A DNA stretch of 53,589 nucleotides from Flavobacteriales bacterium (GTDB lineage: Bacteria > Bacteroidota > Bacteroidia > CAIKAF01), in contig JANWKQ010000126.1 of assembly GCA_025451295.1 (NCBI GenBank), positions 1 to 53,589 of the forward strand, given 5' to 3'. The notes under the pieces were generated by a model, which saw only the letters and a program-made list of their open reading frames with translations, was not told where the DNA came from and did not search any database. The position numbers and the translations under genes were made by a program. Numbering within the stretch: position 1 is the stretch's first letter; every line of letters starts with the position of its first letter. Below are positions 35,376 through 38,679 of the stretch, in pieces.

Positions 35376-37079
35376 CTATCGAAAAGTATAGTCTACACCT
35401 GTTACCTGCGATAACAGGGTTTCCGGCGCATCCAACATATGAGCATTTTTCGCAGGAGCCGGAGTTACAGGTGAATTGGCGGCCAAATATTCCATGATCA
35501 CCGTGTGAATGGTATGTTCAGTATTTAGAGCATCCGCTACTCCTTTAATCCTGCATAAGGTATCACGCGGATCCCCATCTCTGTCGCAGGATAACATTGA
35601 ATATTGTTTTTGCGGGTCAATAGGCTGCCCATTCATCGTCTGACTTTGTACCCTCGATCCCATTTCGCCAAAAGCATTGAAGCTTATTTCCATTCCTTTG
35701 AACTTTACCATCCATCCGCCAATCCGTTTAGAAGCATCTGCTGCAAATACATTGTTCAGTTCTTTTTCAAGCCACTCGATAAGTTGTTTTCCGGTTACTT
35801 TGGCGGTCCGCAGCACGTGATCAACCGGTAACATATCAAATAAAAAACCATTAGTGATCGGAATATTCCCGGTTTCATCGACAGTAGTTCTTGGTGGACA
35901 AAATCTGAATCCATTCATTGCAACCAGATCCATTTCCGGAAATTTCCATTTCAGGGAATTTAGTATCAAGGTGTCAATCGTATTTTCTACCACAAAATTT
36001 CTGTACAAAGGAAGGGTACTATATCCAATAACGGTATTAATATGTTCTTTATAGACTGATTCCTGTTCGTCCAAAAGTTTTTGAATGGCGGGATCCGCTT
36101 TTAGTTTGGAAGGATTTACTTCAAGAAGTTCGTATTCATCTTTGGTGATCATTCCGTTTTCCACCGTTAATTCCAGTTTGCCAATGAAAGATCCAAATGC
36201 CCCGGGCTCAACCACCTTTGCATATTTGCATTCAATCGGTTTGCGGACTCTTTCATGAGTATCACCACCTAAAATATAATTCACACCTTGGCATTCAGGC
36301 ATATTTGCTAGAGAAATTTGCTGGGATAAACCTAAATGTGCAATGATGCAAACAAAATTGCATTGCTCCTGATTTTTTAACACATCTACATAATAAGCCA
36401 GGTTGTCTTCTGGTTTTTTATAAACGATACCCTTACTATAGGTAGGATTTTGTCTTGTTGGGACCCAGGGATCTGTATATCCAAGAAATCCGATTTTAAT
36501 ACCGGCCACATTCCAGATCTCGTAGGGTTGAAATATTAATTCACCTGTTTTACCATCTCCGGCATCATGGAACATATTTGCACAGATCTTGGGTGCTTTG
36601 AGAGCACCCAGTAAGGTGCGCATATTTTTTTTACCATATACGACCTCCCAGTTTCCCGGTAAATACAAATCGTAGTTCAATGCATCCAGAATAGGAACGA
36701 AAGCCTTACCAGTTGTTTTTATACTCAATTCACTACCCTGAAACATATCACCGGTATCAATCACAAATGTATTGGGGGTTTTCTTTCTAAGCTGTTTTAA
36801 CATAGTGGCTATGTAGGCATAGCCGCCCGTTCTTCGAAAAACGGTCTGATCATTTTCCCAAAACAATTCATCATGTGGATGGATCTGACAATGCACATCT
36901 GTGGTCTGAAGGATGGTAATCTTCTTTGGTTTGGAAAAATTGTTGTTATCCAGTTCATCATCGGATTCTGAAATTTCATCGATGTTACCTTTCATTCCTG
37001 ATAACGGAGGCATAATCGCAGCACCCACTCCGAGGGCTGTGATGGATTTGATGAAATGTCTTCTTCCTTTCTTTTTCAT
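35376..37079 (-). CDS. Tat-exported SoxB-like thiosulfohydrolase / 5'-nucleotidase-fold metallohydrolase
   Basis: GRRHFIK twin-arginine signal; TTDVH, DTGDMFQG, PGNWEVVYG (Trp where 5'-nucleotidases have GNHE), HLG, GGDTHE. Confidence 0.8.
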   Translation of the reverse strand: MKKKGRRHFIKSITALGVGAAIMPPLSGMKGNIDEISESDDELDNNNFSKPKKITILQTTDVHCQIHPHDELFWENDQTVFRRTGGYAYIATMLKQLRKKTPNTFVIDTGDMFQGSELSIKTTGKAFVPILDALNYDLYLPGNWEVVYGKKNMRTLLGALKAPKICANMFHDAGDGKTGELIFQPYEIWNVAGIKIGFLGYTDPWVPTRQNPTYSKGIVYKKPEDNLAYYVDVLKNQEQCNFVCIIAHLGLSQQISLANMPECQGVNYILGGDTHERVRKPIECKYAKVVEPGAFGSFIGKLELTVENGMITKDEYELLEVNPSKLKADPAIQKLLDEQESVYKEHINTVIGYSTLPLYRNFVVENTIDTLILNSLKWKFPEMDLVAMNGFRFCPPRTTVDETGNIPITNGFLFDMLPVDHVLRTAKVTGKQLIEWLEKELNNVFAADASKRIGGWMVKFKGMEISFNAFGEMGSRVQSQTMNGQPIDPQKQYSMLSCDRDGDPRDTLCRIKGVADALNTEHTIHTVIMEYLAANSPVTPAPAKNAHMLDAPETLLSQVTGVDYTFR

Positions 37080-37090
37080 TTTTCCAATAG

Positions 37091-37507
37091 CTAAAAACCC
37101 CCTTTAATATAACTCCAGCCTTTTTCTTCTTTCTCAACAATTTCTGCAATACCGGCCGGAACGATCACCGCAATCGGTAACAAATCTTCGGGCTTAATAT
37201 TTCGCTGATTCATTGTATTCTGGCATGCCATGAACTGTACTCCTTTTTTATTCAGTTCATTGATGGCGTTGATATGTTTTGATTTGGCTGACAATAAATA
37301 TTCTATTCCATTATTATAACATACCACTTCTATTTTGGCTTTTGGCCAATGCTCCGTAAGATTCTGCAGTTGACGAGTAAATGCCTTTTGCTGCATCGTA
37401 TCATTGGCATTGGTAAATTGAAATACCACTTTATGTGCTTTTTGCGCAAAGGAGATGCCAGAAGTACTTAAGGTGAGGACAAGTAACAAAAGTCGAAGAT
37501 GTTTCAT
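37091..37507 (-). CDS. DsrE/DsrF-like family protein with Sec signal peptide
   Basis: MKHLRLLLLVLTLSTSGISFA-Q signal; KVVFQ, IEVVC, GVQFMACQNTM, VPAGIAEIV...GWSYIK. Confidence 0.85.
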   Translation of the reverse strand: MKHLRLLLLVLTLSTSGISFAQKAHKVVFQFTNANDTMQQKAFTRQLQNLTEHWPKAKIEVVCYNNGIEYLLSAKSKHINAINELNKKGVQFMACQNTMNQRNIKPEDLLPIAVIVPAGIAEIVEKEEKGWSYIKGGF

Positions 37508-37543
37508 TTTTATTTTTTATTGGTTGTTGGAAATGTTTCTGTT

Positions 37544-38635
37544 CTATTTCTTTTTTTTCTTCTTTTCATCTGCAATAGGCTGGAAAGGTCCGAATTTATG
37601 TTGAGTCTCCGAAAATTTATCTGCATAAGGTCCGAAAGGATGATCAACAGGTTTTTCGGCGATCTTTGGCCAGTCAGCGCTAAAATCTTTGGTAGGTCGG
37701 GCCTGTGAATTTATATAGGCTGCTAAATCCCATGCTTCTTCATCCGTTAGTTCAGGATTTTGAAAGCTCACCCCTTGTGGCATATTGTTTTTAATAAAAC
37801 CCGCCATACGACTCATTCGGTATAATCCTGCACCCTGGTTATAAGAATGATTGCCCCAAAGTGGTGGATAAAGATATTCAATCTGATCACCCGCTAATAT
37901 ACCTTCTCCATTCGGTTGATGACAGCGCTGGCATTTCACCACAAATAATTCTTTTCCTTTTAAAGGATCCGCAGGTCTATCCAAAAAAGGAAGTTCAACA
38001 ATACCGGAACCCTTGGGCTTTTCTCCTTTTATTACCTCTTTGCCTATGAACTCAATGTAGGCTTTCATGGCTTGCATTTCCTTACTGTTGAGGGTTAAGG
38101 CCGTTCCGTTCAGACTGCGCTCAATGCAATCATTGATCCGTTTATAGATATCTTCTGTTTGACCACTTCTCGCCCTGTATTTTGGATACGTTGCAAATAC
38201 AGCTCCGTAATTATTGCCCCAGGTCTTTGTGCCGGCAGCTAAATGACAGTTCTGACAATTCATTCCGTTGGTGGTTTGTGAAACGCTGCCTTTTGGCCCC
38301 AAATATTTGGCTGTATGTGCAATTAAATCTTGTCCGTAAAGAATTTGGGCTTTGAGCTGATTGTTGGAAATTGAATTCAGATCAGCGGGTTTCCAAAAAC
38401 CATTGTCTTCTTTTGGTTGGGTGTCGGCCAATGATTGTTCAATGGCTTTTTTCTTTTTCTCAGCAGCTATTTCAGATTCACTTTTTCTAAACCATGAAAA
38501 CAGATCGGGTTGAACAATCAAAAGCAATGGAATAAGGATCAGACTGGCCAGTAAAAGTGCAATGATTCGGCCAAGTCGCTTGATTTCTTTCGTAAGCTGC
38601 TCTACGAGTATTTTATCCTTGTCCTTTTGTTCCAT
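37544..38635 (-). CDS. tsdA: Membrane-anchored diheme c-type cytochrome, thiosulfate dehydrogenase TsdA-like
   Basis: N-terminal TM helix; CQNCH and CQRCH; RINDCIERSLNG catalytic-Cys motif; PPLWG..SYNQGAG..R; NMP. Confidence 0.75.
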   Translation of the reverse strand: MEQKDKDKILVEQLTKEIKRLGRIIALLLASLILIPLLLIVQPDLFSWFRKSESEIAAEKKKKAIEQSLADTQPKEDNGFWKPADLNSISNNQLKAQILYGQDLIAHTAKYLGPKGSVSQTTNGMNCQNCHLAAGTKTWGNNYGAVFATYPKYRARSGQTEDIYKRINDCIERSLNGTALTLNSKEMQAMKAYIEFIGKEVIKGEKPKGSGIVELPFLDRPADPLKGKELFVVKCQRCHQPNGEGILAGDQIEYLYPPLWGNHSYNQGAGLYRMSRMAGFIKNNMPQGVSFQNPELTDEEAWDLAAYINSQARPTKDFSADWPKIAEKPVDHPFGPYADKFSETQHKFGPFQPIADEKKKKKK

Positions 38636-38679
38636 TTTCGGGACTTCATCACGTGAATTATGAGTCCTAAATGTAATTA

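What the first reader, a model, noticed from the sequence alone, without database searches (positions are those of the whole stretch)
35376..38635. Compact tsdA-dsrE-soxB-like operon: candidate minimal, SoxYZ-free thiosulfate oxidation system in a Bacteroidota
Seen: three co-oriented genes with 36- and 11-nt gaps, sitting between gldC and a DUF5684-like gene. All three products look exported (TM anchor, Sec signal, Tat signal). No soxYZ, soxAX, soxCD or tsdB lies in the window. Known: TsdA and SoxA both form S-S bonds from thiosulfate at a Cys-ligated heme; SoxB hydrolyses sulfate from SoxY-bound S-thiosulfonate; DsrE-family proteins carry sulfur on a Cys, and DsrE3A forms Cys-S-thiosulfonate with tetrathionate. 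Inference: the cytochrome loads thiosulfate (or makes tetrathionate), DsrE is the carrier in place of SoxYZ, and the SoxB-like enzyme releases sulfate. That would be a three-protein periplasmic cycle in a phylum usually regarded as heterotrophic.
Basis: partly seen in the sequence, partly recalled or inferred. Interest (0 to 1): 0.85.

Follow-up and report, generated by a model that had tools for sequence, protein, structure and literature searches.

The report
Bacteroidota TsdA, DsrE-like, SoxB-like sulfur genes
Three neighbouring genes for exported proteins (a thiosulfate-oxidising cytochrome, a small sulfur-carrying protein and a SoxB-like hydrolase) form a module found in many Bacteroidota. 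It most likely lets these heterotrophs oxidise thiosulfate without the classical Sox carrier, by a route already described in another bacterium.

Summary
Three co-oriented minus-strand genes (gaps 36 and 11 nt) encode three proteins:
- a membrane-anchored TsdA-type dihaem cytochrome (E 3e-39 to A. vinosum TsdA, all haem ligands present);
- a Sec-exported DsrE-like protein of the MTH1491 type with an invariant Cys95;
- a Tat-exported SoxB-like metallohydrolase (238 bits against the 550-bit SoxB cut-off).

No SoxY or SoxZ was found in the own MAG (78% complete) or in 18 of 18 other carrier genomes.

The SoxB-like family is widespread in Bacteroidota. It usually sits in a larger sulfur cluster with rhodaneses, PmpAB-like YeeE halves, an OprD porin, TauE and Crp. 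This lineage keeps only the triad.

A SoxYZ-free TsdA + SoxB-like pathway (thiosulfate to tetrathionate to S0 + sulfate) was published for Erythrobacter flavus in 2020, with Bacteroidetes listed as carriers. The core idea is therefore not new.

At least 11 of 18 sampled SoxB-like genomes had no detected DsrE-like gene, and 16 genomes have TsdA + DsrE-like without a SoxB-like gene.

The tight, apparently undescribed TsdA–DsrE-like pairing is the most interesting residue.

Verdict: new variant of a known kind, moderate interest.

The parts
37544..38635 (-). TsdA-type dihaem cytochrome c (363 aa). It has an N-terminal membrane anchor, a catalytic haem 1 with a Cys ligand, and an electron-transfer haem 2 with a Met ligand.
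   Evidence: E 3e-39 to A. vinosum TsdA (4wqc), residues 121-315. PF21342 53.6 bits. Cys127, 130, 170, 235 and 238 are invariant in 57 of 57 sequences (window + 56 relatives). N284-M285 in 57 of 57.
38513..38575 (-). Hydrophobic stretch (about residues 21-41) read as the signal-anchor of the cytochrome.
   Evidence: Read from the translation. No topology predictor was run.
38243..38257 (-). Haem 1 CxxCH (C127-H131) of the cytochrome.
38126..38128 (-). Cys170, aligned with the Cys sixth ligand of the TsdA active-site haem (RINDCIERSLNG against RIGDCFERSLNG).
   Evidence: Alignment printed; invariant in 57 of 57.
37781..37786 (-). Asn284-Met285 at haem 2. Together with Lys282 this is the K-x-N-M pattern of Campylobacter jejuni TsdA, not the Lys-Met of A. 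vinosum TsdA.
   Evidence: 57 of 57; alignment; PMC5146829 passages.
37091..37507 (-). Exported DsrE-like protein (138 aa) of the MTH1491/ST0148 type, with a single invariant Cys.
   Evidence: PF02635 42.8 bits; 1l1s 1.3e-13 and 2pd2 6.3e-12. C95 invariant in 48 of 48.
37445..37507 (-). Sec-type signal peptide (residues 1-21, ending ...SFA|QK).
   Evidence: Read from the sequence. A21 and Q22 are nearly invariant.
37223..37225 (-). Cys95 (motif F-M-A-C-Q-N-T), the presumed sulfur-binding residue.
   Evidence: Aligned to the Cys of MTH1491 (ACSNT) and ST0148 (GCENS). Invariant in 53 of 53 and 48 of 48.
35376..37079 (-). Tat-exported SoxB-like dinuclear metallohydrolase (567 aa). It belongs to a clade distinct from canonical SoxB and from nucleotidases.
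   Evidence: TIGR04486 238.3 bits (cut-off 550). T. thermophilus SoxB 3.6e-28; tree; motifs; model pLDDT 88.7; best fold matches are SoxB 4uwq/2wdc, E about 3e-41.
37047..37067 (-). Twin-arginine motif G-R-R-H-F-I-K (residues 5-11).
   Evidence: Read from the sequence. RRxFLK is the consensus of 33 relatives.
36645..36656 (-). G142-N143-W144-E145. Trp stands where nucleotidases have the catalytic His (GNHE/D), as in canonical SoxB (HWEF).
   Evidence: motif table. N143 is invariant and W144 nearly invariant.

Best explanation
This is the Bacteroidota form of a SoxYZ-independent, periplasmic 'tetrathionate-intermediate' thiosulfate oxidation module.

Step 1 (by close homology). The membrane-anchored TsdA-type cytochrome joins two thiosulfates to tetrathionate at its Cys-ligated haem. 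It passes the electrons on through the Met-ligated haem 2 to the aerobic respiratory chain. The acceptor is not identified.

Step 2 (by analogy to Erythrobacter flavus genetics and by the SoxB-type active-site signature). The Tat-exported SoxB-like metallohydrolase cleaves a terminal sulfonate from tetrathionate. The products are sulfate plus reactive sulfane sulfur and/or thiosulfate.

Step 3 (inferred). The exported DsrE-like protein takes reactive sulfur (persulfide or thiosulfonate) on its invariant Cys95. It acts as an accessory periplasmic sulfurtransferase or buffer tied mainly to TsdA, not as an obligatory SoxYZ substitute.

In most relatives the sulfur then goes to periplasmic rhodaneses, a PmpAB-like two-part YeeE importer and MBL-rhodanese (persulfide dioxygenase-like) proteins, with TauE for sulfite export. 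In this lineage only the triad and an unlinked MBL-rhodanese gene were found. The likely outcome here is supplementary electron gain, or detoxification, by a heterotroph.
For: TsdA identity:
- E 3e-39 to A. vinosum TsdA.
- The Cys ligand motif aligns.
- All five haem Cys are invariant in 57 of 57 sequences.

The SoxB-like protein is not a nucleotidase:
- W144 replaces the catalytic His of GNHE/D, as in canonical SoxB.
- SoxB is the best NCBIfam hit (238 bits against 167 for the next family).
- SoxB is the best fold match.

Sulfur context:
- In 51 well-flanked loci the SoxB-like gene has, within 4 kb, the cytochrome in 41, the DsrE-like gene in 35, YeeE halves in 33-34, rhodanese in 30 and the porin in 29 (families named).
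- The Runella rosea plasmid carries TauE, two MBL genes, the cytochrome, DsrE, the hydrolase, OprD, YeeE and DUF6691 in a row.

Genome-level association in 400 sampled Bacteroidota:
- TsdA-like is present in 15 of 18 SoxB-like carriers, against 35 of the 382 others.

No SoxY or SoxZ in the own genome or in 18 of 18 carriers.

Cytochrome c assembly genes are present in the own genome. An MBL + two-rhodanese protein lies on contig C57.

Precedents:
- E. flavus tsdA and soxB knock-outs lose sulfur-globule formation. The authors propose tetrathionate hydrolysis by SoxB and report gene pairs in Bacteroidetes (PMC7608252, passages and section 17).
- An exported DsrE-like protein in a sox operon was proposed as a sulfurtransferase (PMC9371685).
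Against: - No biochemical or expression data exist for any member of this Bacteroidota clade.
- The hydrolase falls outside canonical SoxB in the tree.
- Its relation to the E. flavus protein could not be tested, because that sequence was not obtainable.
- One metal-ligand position differs from both SoxB and nucleotidases (GDTHE instead of GHTH/GHSH).
- The E. flavus evidence is genetic. In the passages read, tetrathionate hydrolysis by purified SoxB was not seen.
- The haem 2 environment (K282-x-N284-M285) is that of C. jejuni TsdA. That enzyme is biased towards tetrathionate reduction, so the direction of the reaction is not settled.
- The own genome is only 77.9% complete. No sulfite-oxidising molybdoenzyme or PmpAB/YeeE was found, so the fate of the sulfane product here is open.
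Confidence: 0.5

Rival explanations
1. One reading: a protein-bound cycle. The TsdA-like cytochrome, working like SoxAX, oxidatively couples thiosulfate to Cys95 of the DsrE-like protein (or DsrE reacts with tetrathionate). The SoxB-like enzyme then hydrolyses sulfate off DsrE-Cys-S-thiosulfonate. DsrE would replace SoxYZ.
For: - TsdA and SoxA share the Cys-ligated haem domain (PF21342).
- The DsrE-like Cys95 is invariant.
- The DsrE-like gene is strongly tied to TsdA. Of 31 DsrE-like carriers in the 400-genome sample, 21 have TsdA-like, and 16 of those have it within 2 kb.
- The order cyt-dsrE-soxB or cyt-soxB-dsrE occurs in 41 of 80 loci (25 + 13 + 2 + 1).
- SoxYZ is absent.
- DsrE3A forms a Cys-S-thiosulfonate with tetrathionate (PMC4175335, abstract in the search listing).
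Against: - The SoxB-like gene occurs without a detected DsrE-like gene in at least 11 of 18 sampled carriers. It also does so in 9 of 51 well-flanked loci that still have the cytochrome.
- TsdA + DsrE-like occurs without SoxB-like in 16 sampled genomes. Neither enzyme therefore depends on the proposed chain.
- Cys95 is internal to a compact DsrE fold (aligned with MTH1491). The C-terminus (...SYIKGGF) has no Cys-bearing arm such as the one SoxB receives from SoxY (4uwq title).
- The published TsdA + SoxB route needs no carrier.
Confidence: 0.17
2. The module handles sulfane sulfur or polysulfide, or other sulfonated sulfur compounds, as part of a sulfide-detoxification cluster (SQR, persulfide dioxygenase-rhodanese, TauE). 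The SoxB-like enzyme would act on a substrate other than tetrathionate, such as higher polythionates or S-sulfonated thiols. TsdA would only recycle the thiosulfate by-product.
For: - Neighbours in relatives include SQR-like, MBL and rhodanese proteins, TauE, TlpA-like thioredoxins and USP.
- A Novosphingobium plasmid has a SoxB-like gene (HWEF motif) in a cluster that is typical for sulfide detoxification as I recall such clusters. It holds ArsR, peroxiredoxin, MBL, YeeE, DUF6691, a phosphatase/oxidoreductase fusion, TauE, TlpA and DsbA, plus an apparently exported DsrE family protein and no TsdA in the 19 kb shown.
- G164 and G236 have the SoxB-like gene without TsdA.
Against: - TsdA is the most frequent neighbour of the SoxB-like gene (41 of 51 loci).
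- The window lineage keeps exactly TsdA, DsrE-like and SoxB-like and none of the detoxification genes nearby.
Confidence: 0.15
3. The cytochrome works in the reductive direction, with tetrathionate as electron acceptor under low oxygen as in Campylobacter jejuni. The module then serves tetrathionate use rather than thiosulfate oxidation.
For: - TsdA enzymes are bidirectional. The K-x-N-M haem 2 environment, found in 57 of 57 Bacteroidota sequences for N and M, matches CjTsdA. That enzyme is biased towards tetrathionate reduction.
Against: - A sulfonate-cleaving hydrolase has no obvious role downstream of tetrathionate reduction.
- The paper shows that single residues near haem 2 shift the bias in ways that are hard to predict, so the motif does not fix the direction.
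- Flavobacterium isolates are reported to oxidise thiosulfate (cited in PMC3631710).
Confidence: 0.08
4. The 567-aa protein is an ordinary periplasmic 5'-nucleotidase or phosphoesterase, and its position next to tsdA and dsrE is fortuitous.
For: - Its Pfam domains are Metallophos + 5_nucleotid_C.
- Public annotations call it a nucleotidase.
- Fold matches to nucleotidases are almost as good as those to SoxB.
Against: - The catalytic His of GNHE/D is replaced by Trp in the whole clade.
- Synteny with sulfur genes is conserved across several Bacteroidota families and on plasmids.
Confidence: 0.04

Closest known systems
TsdA + SoxB thiosulfate oxidation pathway of Erythrobacter flavus 21-3 (Zhang et al. 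2020, PMC7608252)
   Same: - A TsdA-type cytochrome plus a protein annotated 'metallophosphatase/5'-nucleotidase' that carries a SoxB-like domain.
- No SoxYZ is involved.
- MBL-rhodanese sulfur dioxygenases belong to the same system.
- The authors list Bacteroidetes among organisms holding both genes.
   Different: - DsrE does not occur in the main text of that paper (0 occurrences). Here a DsrE-like gene lies between the two enzymes.
- The cytochrome here is membrane-anchored.
- Orthology of the hydrolases is untested, because the E. flavus sequences and Supplementary Table S5 were not available.
Canonical Sox system (SoxAX, SoxYZ, SoxB)
   Same: - A Cys-ligated haem cytochrome of the SoxA/TsdA superfamily.
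- A Tat-exported dinuclear hydrolase with Trp at the nucleotidase catalytic-His position.
- A periplasmic location.
   Different: - No SoxY or SoxZ.
- The hydrolase scores 238 bits against a 550-bit cut-off and lacks a match to the first ~110 profile positions.
- It lies in a separate clade.
- Its motifs are GNWE and GDTHE, against HWEF and GHTHD in canonical SoxB.
TsdA of Allochromatium vinosum and Campylobacter jejuni
   Same: - Two CxxCH motifs.
- The Cys ligand motif R-I-x-D-C-x-E-R-S-L-N-G.
- A Met ligand at haem 2.
- The K-x-N-M pattern as in CjTsdA.
   Different: - An N-terminal extension of ~100 residues with a membrane anchor.
- A conserved C-terminal extension (residues ~316-355).
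- No tsdB-like cytochrome gene in the window.
MTH1491 / ST0148 (structural-genomics DsrE-like proteins; PDB 1l1s, 2pd2)
   Same: - The best sequence matches (1.3e-13 and 6.3e-12).
- The conserved Cys aligns.
   Different: - Those entries are named only 'hypothetical protein' in the PDB table.
- The window protein has a signal peptide and sits in a sulfur-oxidation locus.
DsrE3A/TusA thiosulfonate relay of Metallosphaera cuprina (PMC4175335), and the periplasmic DsrE-like protein in the sox operon of Methylovirgula thiovorans HY1 (PMC9371685)
   Same: - DsrE-family proteins that carry sulfur on a Cys.
- DsrE3A reacts with tetrathionate to give a Cys-S-thiosulfonate (abstract).
- HY1 has an exported DsrE-like gene beside periplasmic sulfur oxidation genes.
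   Different: - DsrE3A is cytoplasmic and belongs to the sHdr system.
- The HY1 protein accompanies a SoxYZ-containing system.
- Neither is paired with TsdA.

Membership tests
TsdA (thiosulfate dehydrogenase / tetrathionate reductase) | Two c-type haem-binding CxxCH motifs in a SoxA/TsdA-type fold | tested here: met
   C127-H131 and C235-H239 are present. PF21342 scores 53.6 bits against a cut-off of 27. E 3e-39 to 4wqc.
TsdA (thiosulfate dehydrogenase / tetrathionate reductase) | Cys as sixth ligand of the catalytic haem 1 | tested here: met
   Cys170 aligns in RINDCIERSLNG against RIGDCFERSLNG. It is invariant in 57 of 57 sequences. That this Cys is the ligand in AvTsdA is recalled; the role of the corresponding CjTsdA Cys138 is stated in PMC5146829.
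TsdA (thiosulfate dehydrogenase / tetrathionate reductase) | Strictly conserved Met at haem 2 | tested here: met
   M285 is present in 57 of 57 sequences. It aligns with the Met of the AvTsdA motif.
TsdA (thiosulfate dehydrogenase / tetrathionate reductase) | Thiosulfate/tetrathionate interconversion activity | not testable with these tools
   This needs an enzyme assay.
Canonical thiosulfohydrolase SoxB (TIGR04486) | Score at or above the curated equivalog cut-off (550 bits) over the full profile | tested here: not met
   The score is 238.3 bits and only profile positions 110-555 are matched. Canonical representatives score 603-855 bits.
Canonical thiosulfohydrolase SoxB (TIGR04486) | Placement inside the canonical SoxB clade | tested here: not met
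   a branch with SH-aLRT 99 separates the window clade from the canonical SoxB representatives. The tree was built quickly and is unrooted.
Canonical thiosulfohydrolase SoxB (TIGR04486) | Trp in place of the nucleotidase catalytic His in motif III | tested here: met
   The window has GNWE and canonical representatives have HWEF (4 of the 5 scanned; P0244 has DWEF). Nucleotidase-like representatives have GNHE/D.
Canonical thiosulfohydrolase SoxB (TIGR04486) | A SoxYZ carrier encoded in the same genome | tested here: not met
   SoxY and SoxZ were found in 0 of 1 (own genome) and 0 of 18 carrier genomes. The own genome is 77.9% complete.
Canonical thiosulfohydrolase SoxB (TIGR04486) | Twin-arginine export signal | tested here: met
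   GRRHFIK at residues 5-11; RRxFLK is the consensus. That SoxB is a Tat substrate is recalled.
5'-nucleotidase / UshA / CD73 family | Metallophos + 5_nucleotid_C domain pair | tested here: met
   PF00149 37.8 bits and PF02872 49.8 bits.
5'-nucleotidase / UshA / CD73 family | Catalytic His in the GNHE/D motif | tested here: not met
   W144 stands at that position. It is nearly invariant in 33 relatives. That this His is catalytic in UshA is recalled.
DsrE/DsrF-like family (PF02635) | Pfam match over the cut-off, with the conserved Cys | tested here: met
   42.8 bits against a cut-off of 22.7. Cys95 is invariant.
DsrEFH / TusBCD-type cytoplasmic sulfur relay | Cytoplasmic hetero-oligomer encoded with dsrF/dsrH (tusC/tusB) | tested here: not met
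   The protein has a signal peptide, is encoded by a single gene, and has no dsrF- or dsrH-like neighbours.
SoxYZ-type carrier | Carrier Cys on a flexible C-terminal GGCGG arm | tested here: not met
   The only invariant Cys is residue 95 of 138. The C-terminus is ...SYIKGGF, without a Cys. The SoxY motif is recalled.

The most novel reading that the evidence does not exclude
In Bacteroidota the exported DsrE-like protein is the dedicated protein partner of TsdA-type cytochromes. The cytochrome would load thiosulfate-derived sulfur covalently onto, or take it from, DsrE-Cys95. That would be a second, evolutionarily independent protein-bound periplasmic sulfur oxidation system analogous to SoxAX-SoxYZ.

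The downstream modules would be interchangeable: the SoxB-like hydrolase in this window, and a Tat-exported ~230-aa Cys-rich protein or a sulfate/thiosulfate-type binding protein in other lineages.
Probability: 0.17. Interest if true: 0.8.

Novelty: new variant of a known kind. Interest (0 to 1): 0.45.

Why it matters
Bacteroidota are abundant heterotrophs in soils, fresh water and marine particles. If this module works as proposed, it gives a defined genetic basis for their long-observed thiosulfate oxidation.

It would also add a phylum-wide sink and source for tetrathionate, zero-valent sulfur and sulfate. Standard sox/dsr marker surveys miss it, because the hydrolase is annotated as a nucleotidase and falls below the SoxB model cut-off.

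The conserved TsdA–DsrE-like pair offers a testable lead on two open points: how TsdA-type enzymes are coupled to sulfur trafficking, and whether carriers other than SoxYZ exist in the periplasm. Several cultured carriers make the tests straightforward.

Tried and rejected
- Complex prediction of the SoxB-like protein (residues 48-567, alignment A4) with the DsrE-like protein (residues 22-138, alignment A3) and two Mn gave 'no answer', score 0.00. It is not used as evidence either way.
- Sequencing runs: no RNA holder was listed. There is therefore no expression evidence.
- Fold search: SoxB ranks first (2.8e-41), but nucleotidases follow closely (6e-40). Fold alone does not separate the two.
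- Sigma-70 promoter scan: 16 sites found against 16.6 expected. It is uninformative, and Bacteroidota promoters differ (recalled).
- Naming of the unnamed SoxB-like representatives P0121-P0141 failed.
- Own-genome searches with HMMs built from the relatives' neighbour genes found no YeeE halves, porin or DUF202. PF04143 was also absent from the own genome and from the closest relative's genome, G014. Absence in a 78%-complete MAG is weak evidence.
- PF00174 (SoxC/sulfite oxidase type) gave no match in the own genome.
- BLASTP between the window DsrE-like protein and the Novosphingobium plasmid DsrE family protein gave no alignment. They are not close relatives.
- Alignments A1 and A2 were made with coordinates shifted by one codon, dropping the start Met and including the stop. 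They were replaced by A3 and A4 and not used further.
- PMC9237845 was checked for a tsdA-dsrE link. It mentions only cytoplasmic DsrEFH.
- Literature searches found no paper in the held library that describes a TsdA–DsrE-like–SoxB-like gene triad, or a TsdA–DsrE-like pair, in Bacteroidota. Supplementary Table S5 of PMC7608252, which lists the Bacteroidetes carriers, could not be seen and may bear on this.

Full report
**1. What is there**

One search shows three co-oriented minus-strand ORFs: 37544-38635 (363 aa), 37091-37507 (138 aa) and 35376-37079 (567 aa). The gaps are 36 and 11 nt.

- Upstream lie gldB and gldC, and downstream a DUF5684 gene.
- The only strong terminator-like hairpin on this strand follows the DUF5684 gene. 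The extent of the transcription unit is therefore open.
- The window is contig C126 of a MAG of 3.41 Mb in 257 contigs, 77.9% complete.

**2. The cytochrome is a TsdA**

- It matches A. vinosum TsdA at E 3e-39 over residues 121-315.
- The active-site motif RINDCIERSLNG lies opposite RIGDCFERSLNG.
- It passes the Pfam SoxA/TsdA domain cut-off.
- In an alignment of the window protein with 56 relatives, both CxxCH motifs, Cys170 and N284-M285 are invariant (57 of 57).
- The haem 2 environment, K282-x-N284-M285, is that of Campylobacter jejuni TsdA (Lys252, Asn254, Met255). It is not the Lys208-Met209 of the A. vinosum enzyme (PMC5146829, passages).
- About 100 N-terminal residues, including a hydrophobic anchor, precede the catalytic domain (read from the sequence).
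- This is the only CxxCH-bearing ORF of 100 aa or more in the window.

**3. The small protein is an exported DsrE-like protein**

- PF02635 is over the cut-off.
- The nearest solved structures are MTH1491 (1.3e-13) and ST0148 (6.3e-12). Their Cys aligns with Cys95.
- Cys95 is the only invariant Cys (53 of 53; 48 of 48).
- The signal peptide region is conserved.

**4. The large protein is SoxB-like, not canonical SoxB and not a nucleotidase**

- Its best NCBIfam hit is SoxB at 238 bits, against a cut-off of 550. Only profile positions 110-555 are matched.
- Of 1.84 billion representatives, 206 match at E <= 1e-30.
- I took 55 of the 150 listed representatives, choosing those about 440-660 aa long that looked full-length and single-domain. 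I added 12 of the 80 locus proteins, the window protein and two plasmid proteins, and built a quick LG+G4 tree (70 rows; midpoint drawing only; 15 rows flagged for composition).
- The Bacteroidota proteins form one clade (SH-aLRT 100) among unnamed relatives of 30-45% identity.
- Five representatives were checked by scan: four score 603-855 bits and one 482 bits. They sit across a 99-supported branch, together with nucleotidase-like representatives.
- Motif III is the telling feature:
  - nucleotidase-like rows have GNHE/D;
  - canonical SoxB rows have HWEF;
  - the window clade has GNWE, which keeps the Asn but has Trp at the catalytic-His position.
- Motif V is GDTHE, against GHTHD (SoxB) and GHSH (nucleotidases).
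- An AlphaFold model (pLDDT 88.7) matches T. thermophilus SoxB best (E 2.8e-41). Nucleotidases are close behind.

**5. Distribution and neighbourhood**

The best 80 (64-79% identity) carry record titles from Flavobacterium isolates, Daejeonella rubra and MAGs labelled Chitinophagaceae, Saprospiraceae, Crocinitomicaceae and the like. A few MAG titles are clearly odd.
- Clustering all ORFs of these loci and naming the clusters with Pfam shows a recurrent set. It comprises periplasmic rhodaneses, two short YeeE halves (PmpB/PmpA-like; see PMC11582611), the cytochrome, the DsrE-like protein, the SoxB-like protein, an OprD-type porin, Crp, TauE, USP, a TlpA-like protein, DUF202 and sometimes an SQR-like protein.
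- In the 51 of 80 loci with at least 4 kb on both flanks:
  - the cytochrome lies within 4 kb in 41 and the DsrE-like gene in 35;
  - both are present in 32, the cytochrome only in 9, DsrE only in 3, and neither in 7.
- Gene orders among all 80 loci include C-E-B (25), C-B-E (13), C-B (13) and B alone (14, many on short contigs).
- Two Runella plasmids carry the family. The R. rosea plasmid has TauE, two MBL genes, the cytochrome, DsrE, the hydrolase, OprD, YeeE and DUF6691 in a row, all with generic names.
- The window and its closest relative L003 (79% identity) share the reduced arrangement gldB-gldC-cyt-dsrE-soxB-DUF5684.
- Neither genome has a Sulf_transp match.
- The own genome does have cytochrome c assembly genes and an MBL + two-rhodanese protein elsewhere.

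**6. SoxYZ**

No SoxY or SoxZ match was found in the own genome, nor in 18 of 18 other carrier genomes, 13 of them isolates. The Thermus control was positive each time.

**7. Genome-level co-occurrence**

I searched an even sample of 400 Bacteroidota genomes, each at least 90% complete.

| Query | Genomes with a match |
|---|---|
| SoxB-like (E <= 1e-60) | 18 |
| TsdA-like (E <= 1e-30) | 50 |
| DsrE-like profile (E <= 1e-10) | 31 |

Cross-tabulating the listed rows by hand gives:

- TsdA-like in 15 of 18 SoxB-like carriers;
- DsrE-like in 6 of 18 (a seventh, G236, shows a DsrE-like ORF next to the SoxB-like gene with my local HMM);
- TsdA-like in 21 of 31 DsrE-like carriers, and within 2 kb on the same contig in 16 of those 21;
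- all three in 5 genomes;
- TsdA + DsrE-like without SoxB-like in 16, adjacent in 12 of those.

Caveats:
- Kin are not independent.
- Only 10 first-look candidates per genome were scored, so the DsrE counts are lower bounds.
- The thresholds are my own.

In the loci without a SoxB-like gene, the pair is accompanied by one of two things. One is an SBP_bac_11 binding protein. The other is a conserved Tat-signal protein of about 230 aa with an FC(V/A)CN motif and no Pfam match. That ~230-aa family is absent from the own genome and from all 80 SoxB-like loci.

**8. Comparison with the literature**

- Zhang et al. 2020 (PMC7608252; passages and section 17 read, supplements not seen) showed that deleting tsdA or a SoxB-like 'metallophosphatase/5'-nucleotidase' gene abolishes sulfur-globule formation from thiosulfate in E. 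flavus.
  - They proposed thiosulfate to tetrathionate (TsdA), then to sulfate + zero-valent sulfur (SoxB), then to sulfite (SdoA/B).
  - They checked hits for soxYZ and reported gene pairs in Bacteroidetes.
- The route is already used in metagenome interpretation (PMC12345210).
- An exported DsrE-like gene in a sox operon was noted in Methylovirgula thiovorans (PMC9371685).
- DsrE3A forms a thiosulfonate with tetrathionate (PMC4175335, abstract only).
- Thiosulfate oxidation by Flavobacterium cultures is cited in PMC3631710.
- Searches turned up no description of the triad, or of a TsdA–DsrE-like pair.

**9. Reading**

The core is best explained as the published carrier-free TsdA + SoxB-like route in a new phylum-specific form (confidence 0.5).

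- It is also weakened because Cys95 is not on a swinging arm.
- It is not excluded (0.17), and the strong TsdA–DsrE-like linkage does call for an explanation.
- The direction of TsdA catalysis and the true substrate of the hydrolase remain open.

Noticed in passing
L090:9844-10548(-), L091:8719-9426(+), L099:9294-9980(+), L100:8952-9638(-): A conserved ~230-aa protein family lies between or beside tsdA-like and dsrE-like genes in genomes that lack the SoxB-like gene. It has a twin-arginine signal (HRRxFLG), an FC(V/A)CN motif and a C-terminal GC(A/G)Y motif, and no Pfam match. Members are 42-69% identical to each other. The family is absent from the own genome and from all 80 SoxB-like loci, so it may be an alternative downstream partner.
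   Followed up: partly
L093:7740-8657(-), L093:6979-7725(-), L097:8078-8986(-), L101:9112-10053(+): SBP_bac_11 periplasmic binding proteins lie directly next to TsdA–DsrE-like pairs in several Bacteroidota genomes without a SoxB-like gene. That this family binds sulfate, thiosulfate or molybdate is recalled.
   Followed up: partly
L083 (Runella rosea plasmid NZ_CP030856.1) and hit H2 (Runella slithyformis plasmid NC_015705.1): The sulfur cluster sits on a 48-kb plasmid of Runella rosea, where the annotated region was inspected. A 45-kb plasmid of R. slithyformis carries the SoxB-like gene, but its neighbourhood was not inspected. This suggests horizontal mobility of the module.
   Followed up: partly
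L011 and L030 (Flavobacterium petrolei); L018 and L037 (F. psychrolimnae): Two separate copies of the cyt-dsrE-soxB-like cluster lie on different contigs of the same isolate genome. One copy has a FadL/TodX-type outer-membrane gene inserted before the SoxB-like gene.
   Followed up: no
L087:3423-4847(+) = G000 contig C57: A 474-aa MBL-fold protein with two rhodanese domains is unlinked to the triad. It has the same domain make-up the E. flavus paper gives for SdoA (an MBL-fold hydrolase with a rhodanese part).
   Followed up: partly
window 38636-38679 (minus strand, between gldC and the cytochrome gene): The 44-nt spacer holds an imperfect inverted repeat (GGACT...AGTCC) around a CACGTG palindrome, just upstream of the cytochrome start codon. 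It could be a regulator-binding site or an RNA hairpin.
   Followed up: no
L002 = G000 contig C41:25128-26039(+): A second, shorter (~304 aa) metallophosphatase gives a weak SoxB-profile match (81 bits). A universal-stress-protein-like ORF lies nearby on the same contig.
   Followed up: no
L084 (Novosphingobium resinovorum plasmid pSA3): A 480-aa SoxB-like protein with the canonical-type HWEF motif lies in a cluster with ArsR, peroxiredoxin, MBL, YeeE, DUF6691, a phosphatase/oxidoreductase fusion, TauE, TlpA, DsbA and cytochrome bd genes, plus a DsrE family protein with a signal-like N-terminus. SoxB-like and exported DsrE-like proteins therefore also co-occur in Alphaproteobacteria.
   Followed up: partly
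record titles (L006, L021, L008, L029): Some MAG records that carry this Bacteroidota-type gene are titled 'uncultured Bifidobacterium sp.', 'Candidatus Methylacidiphilales' or 'Chitinophaga pinensis'. These are probably mislabelled or mis-binned records.
   Followed up: no
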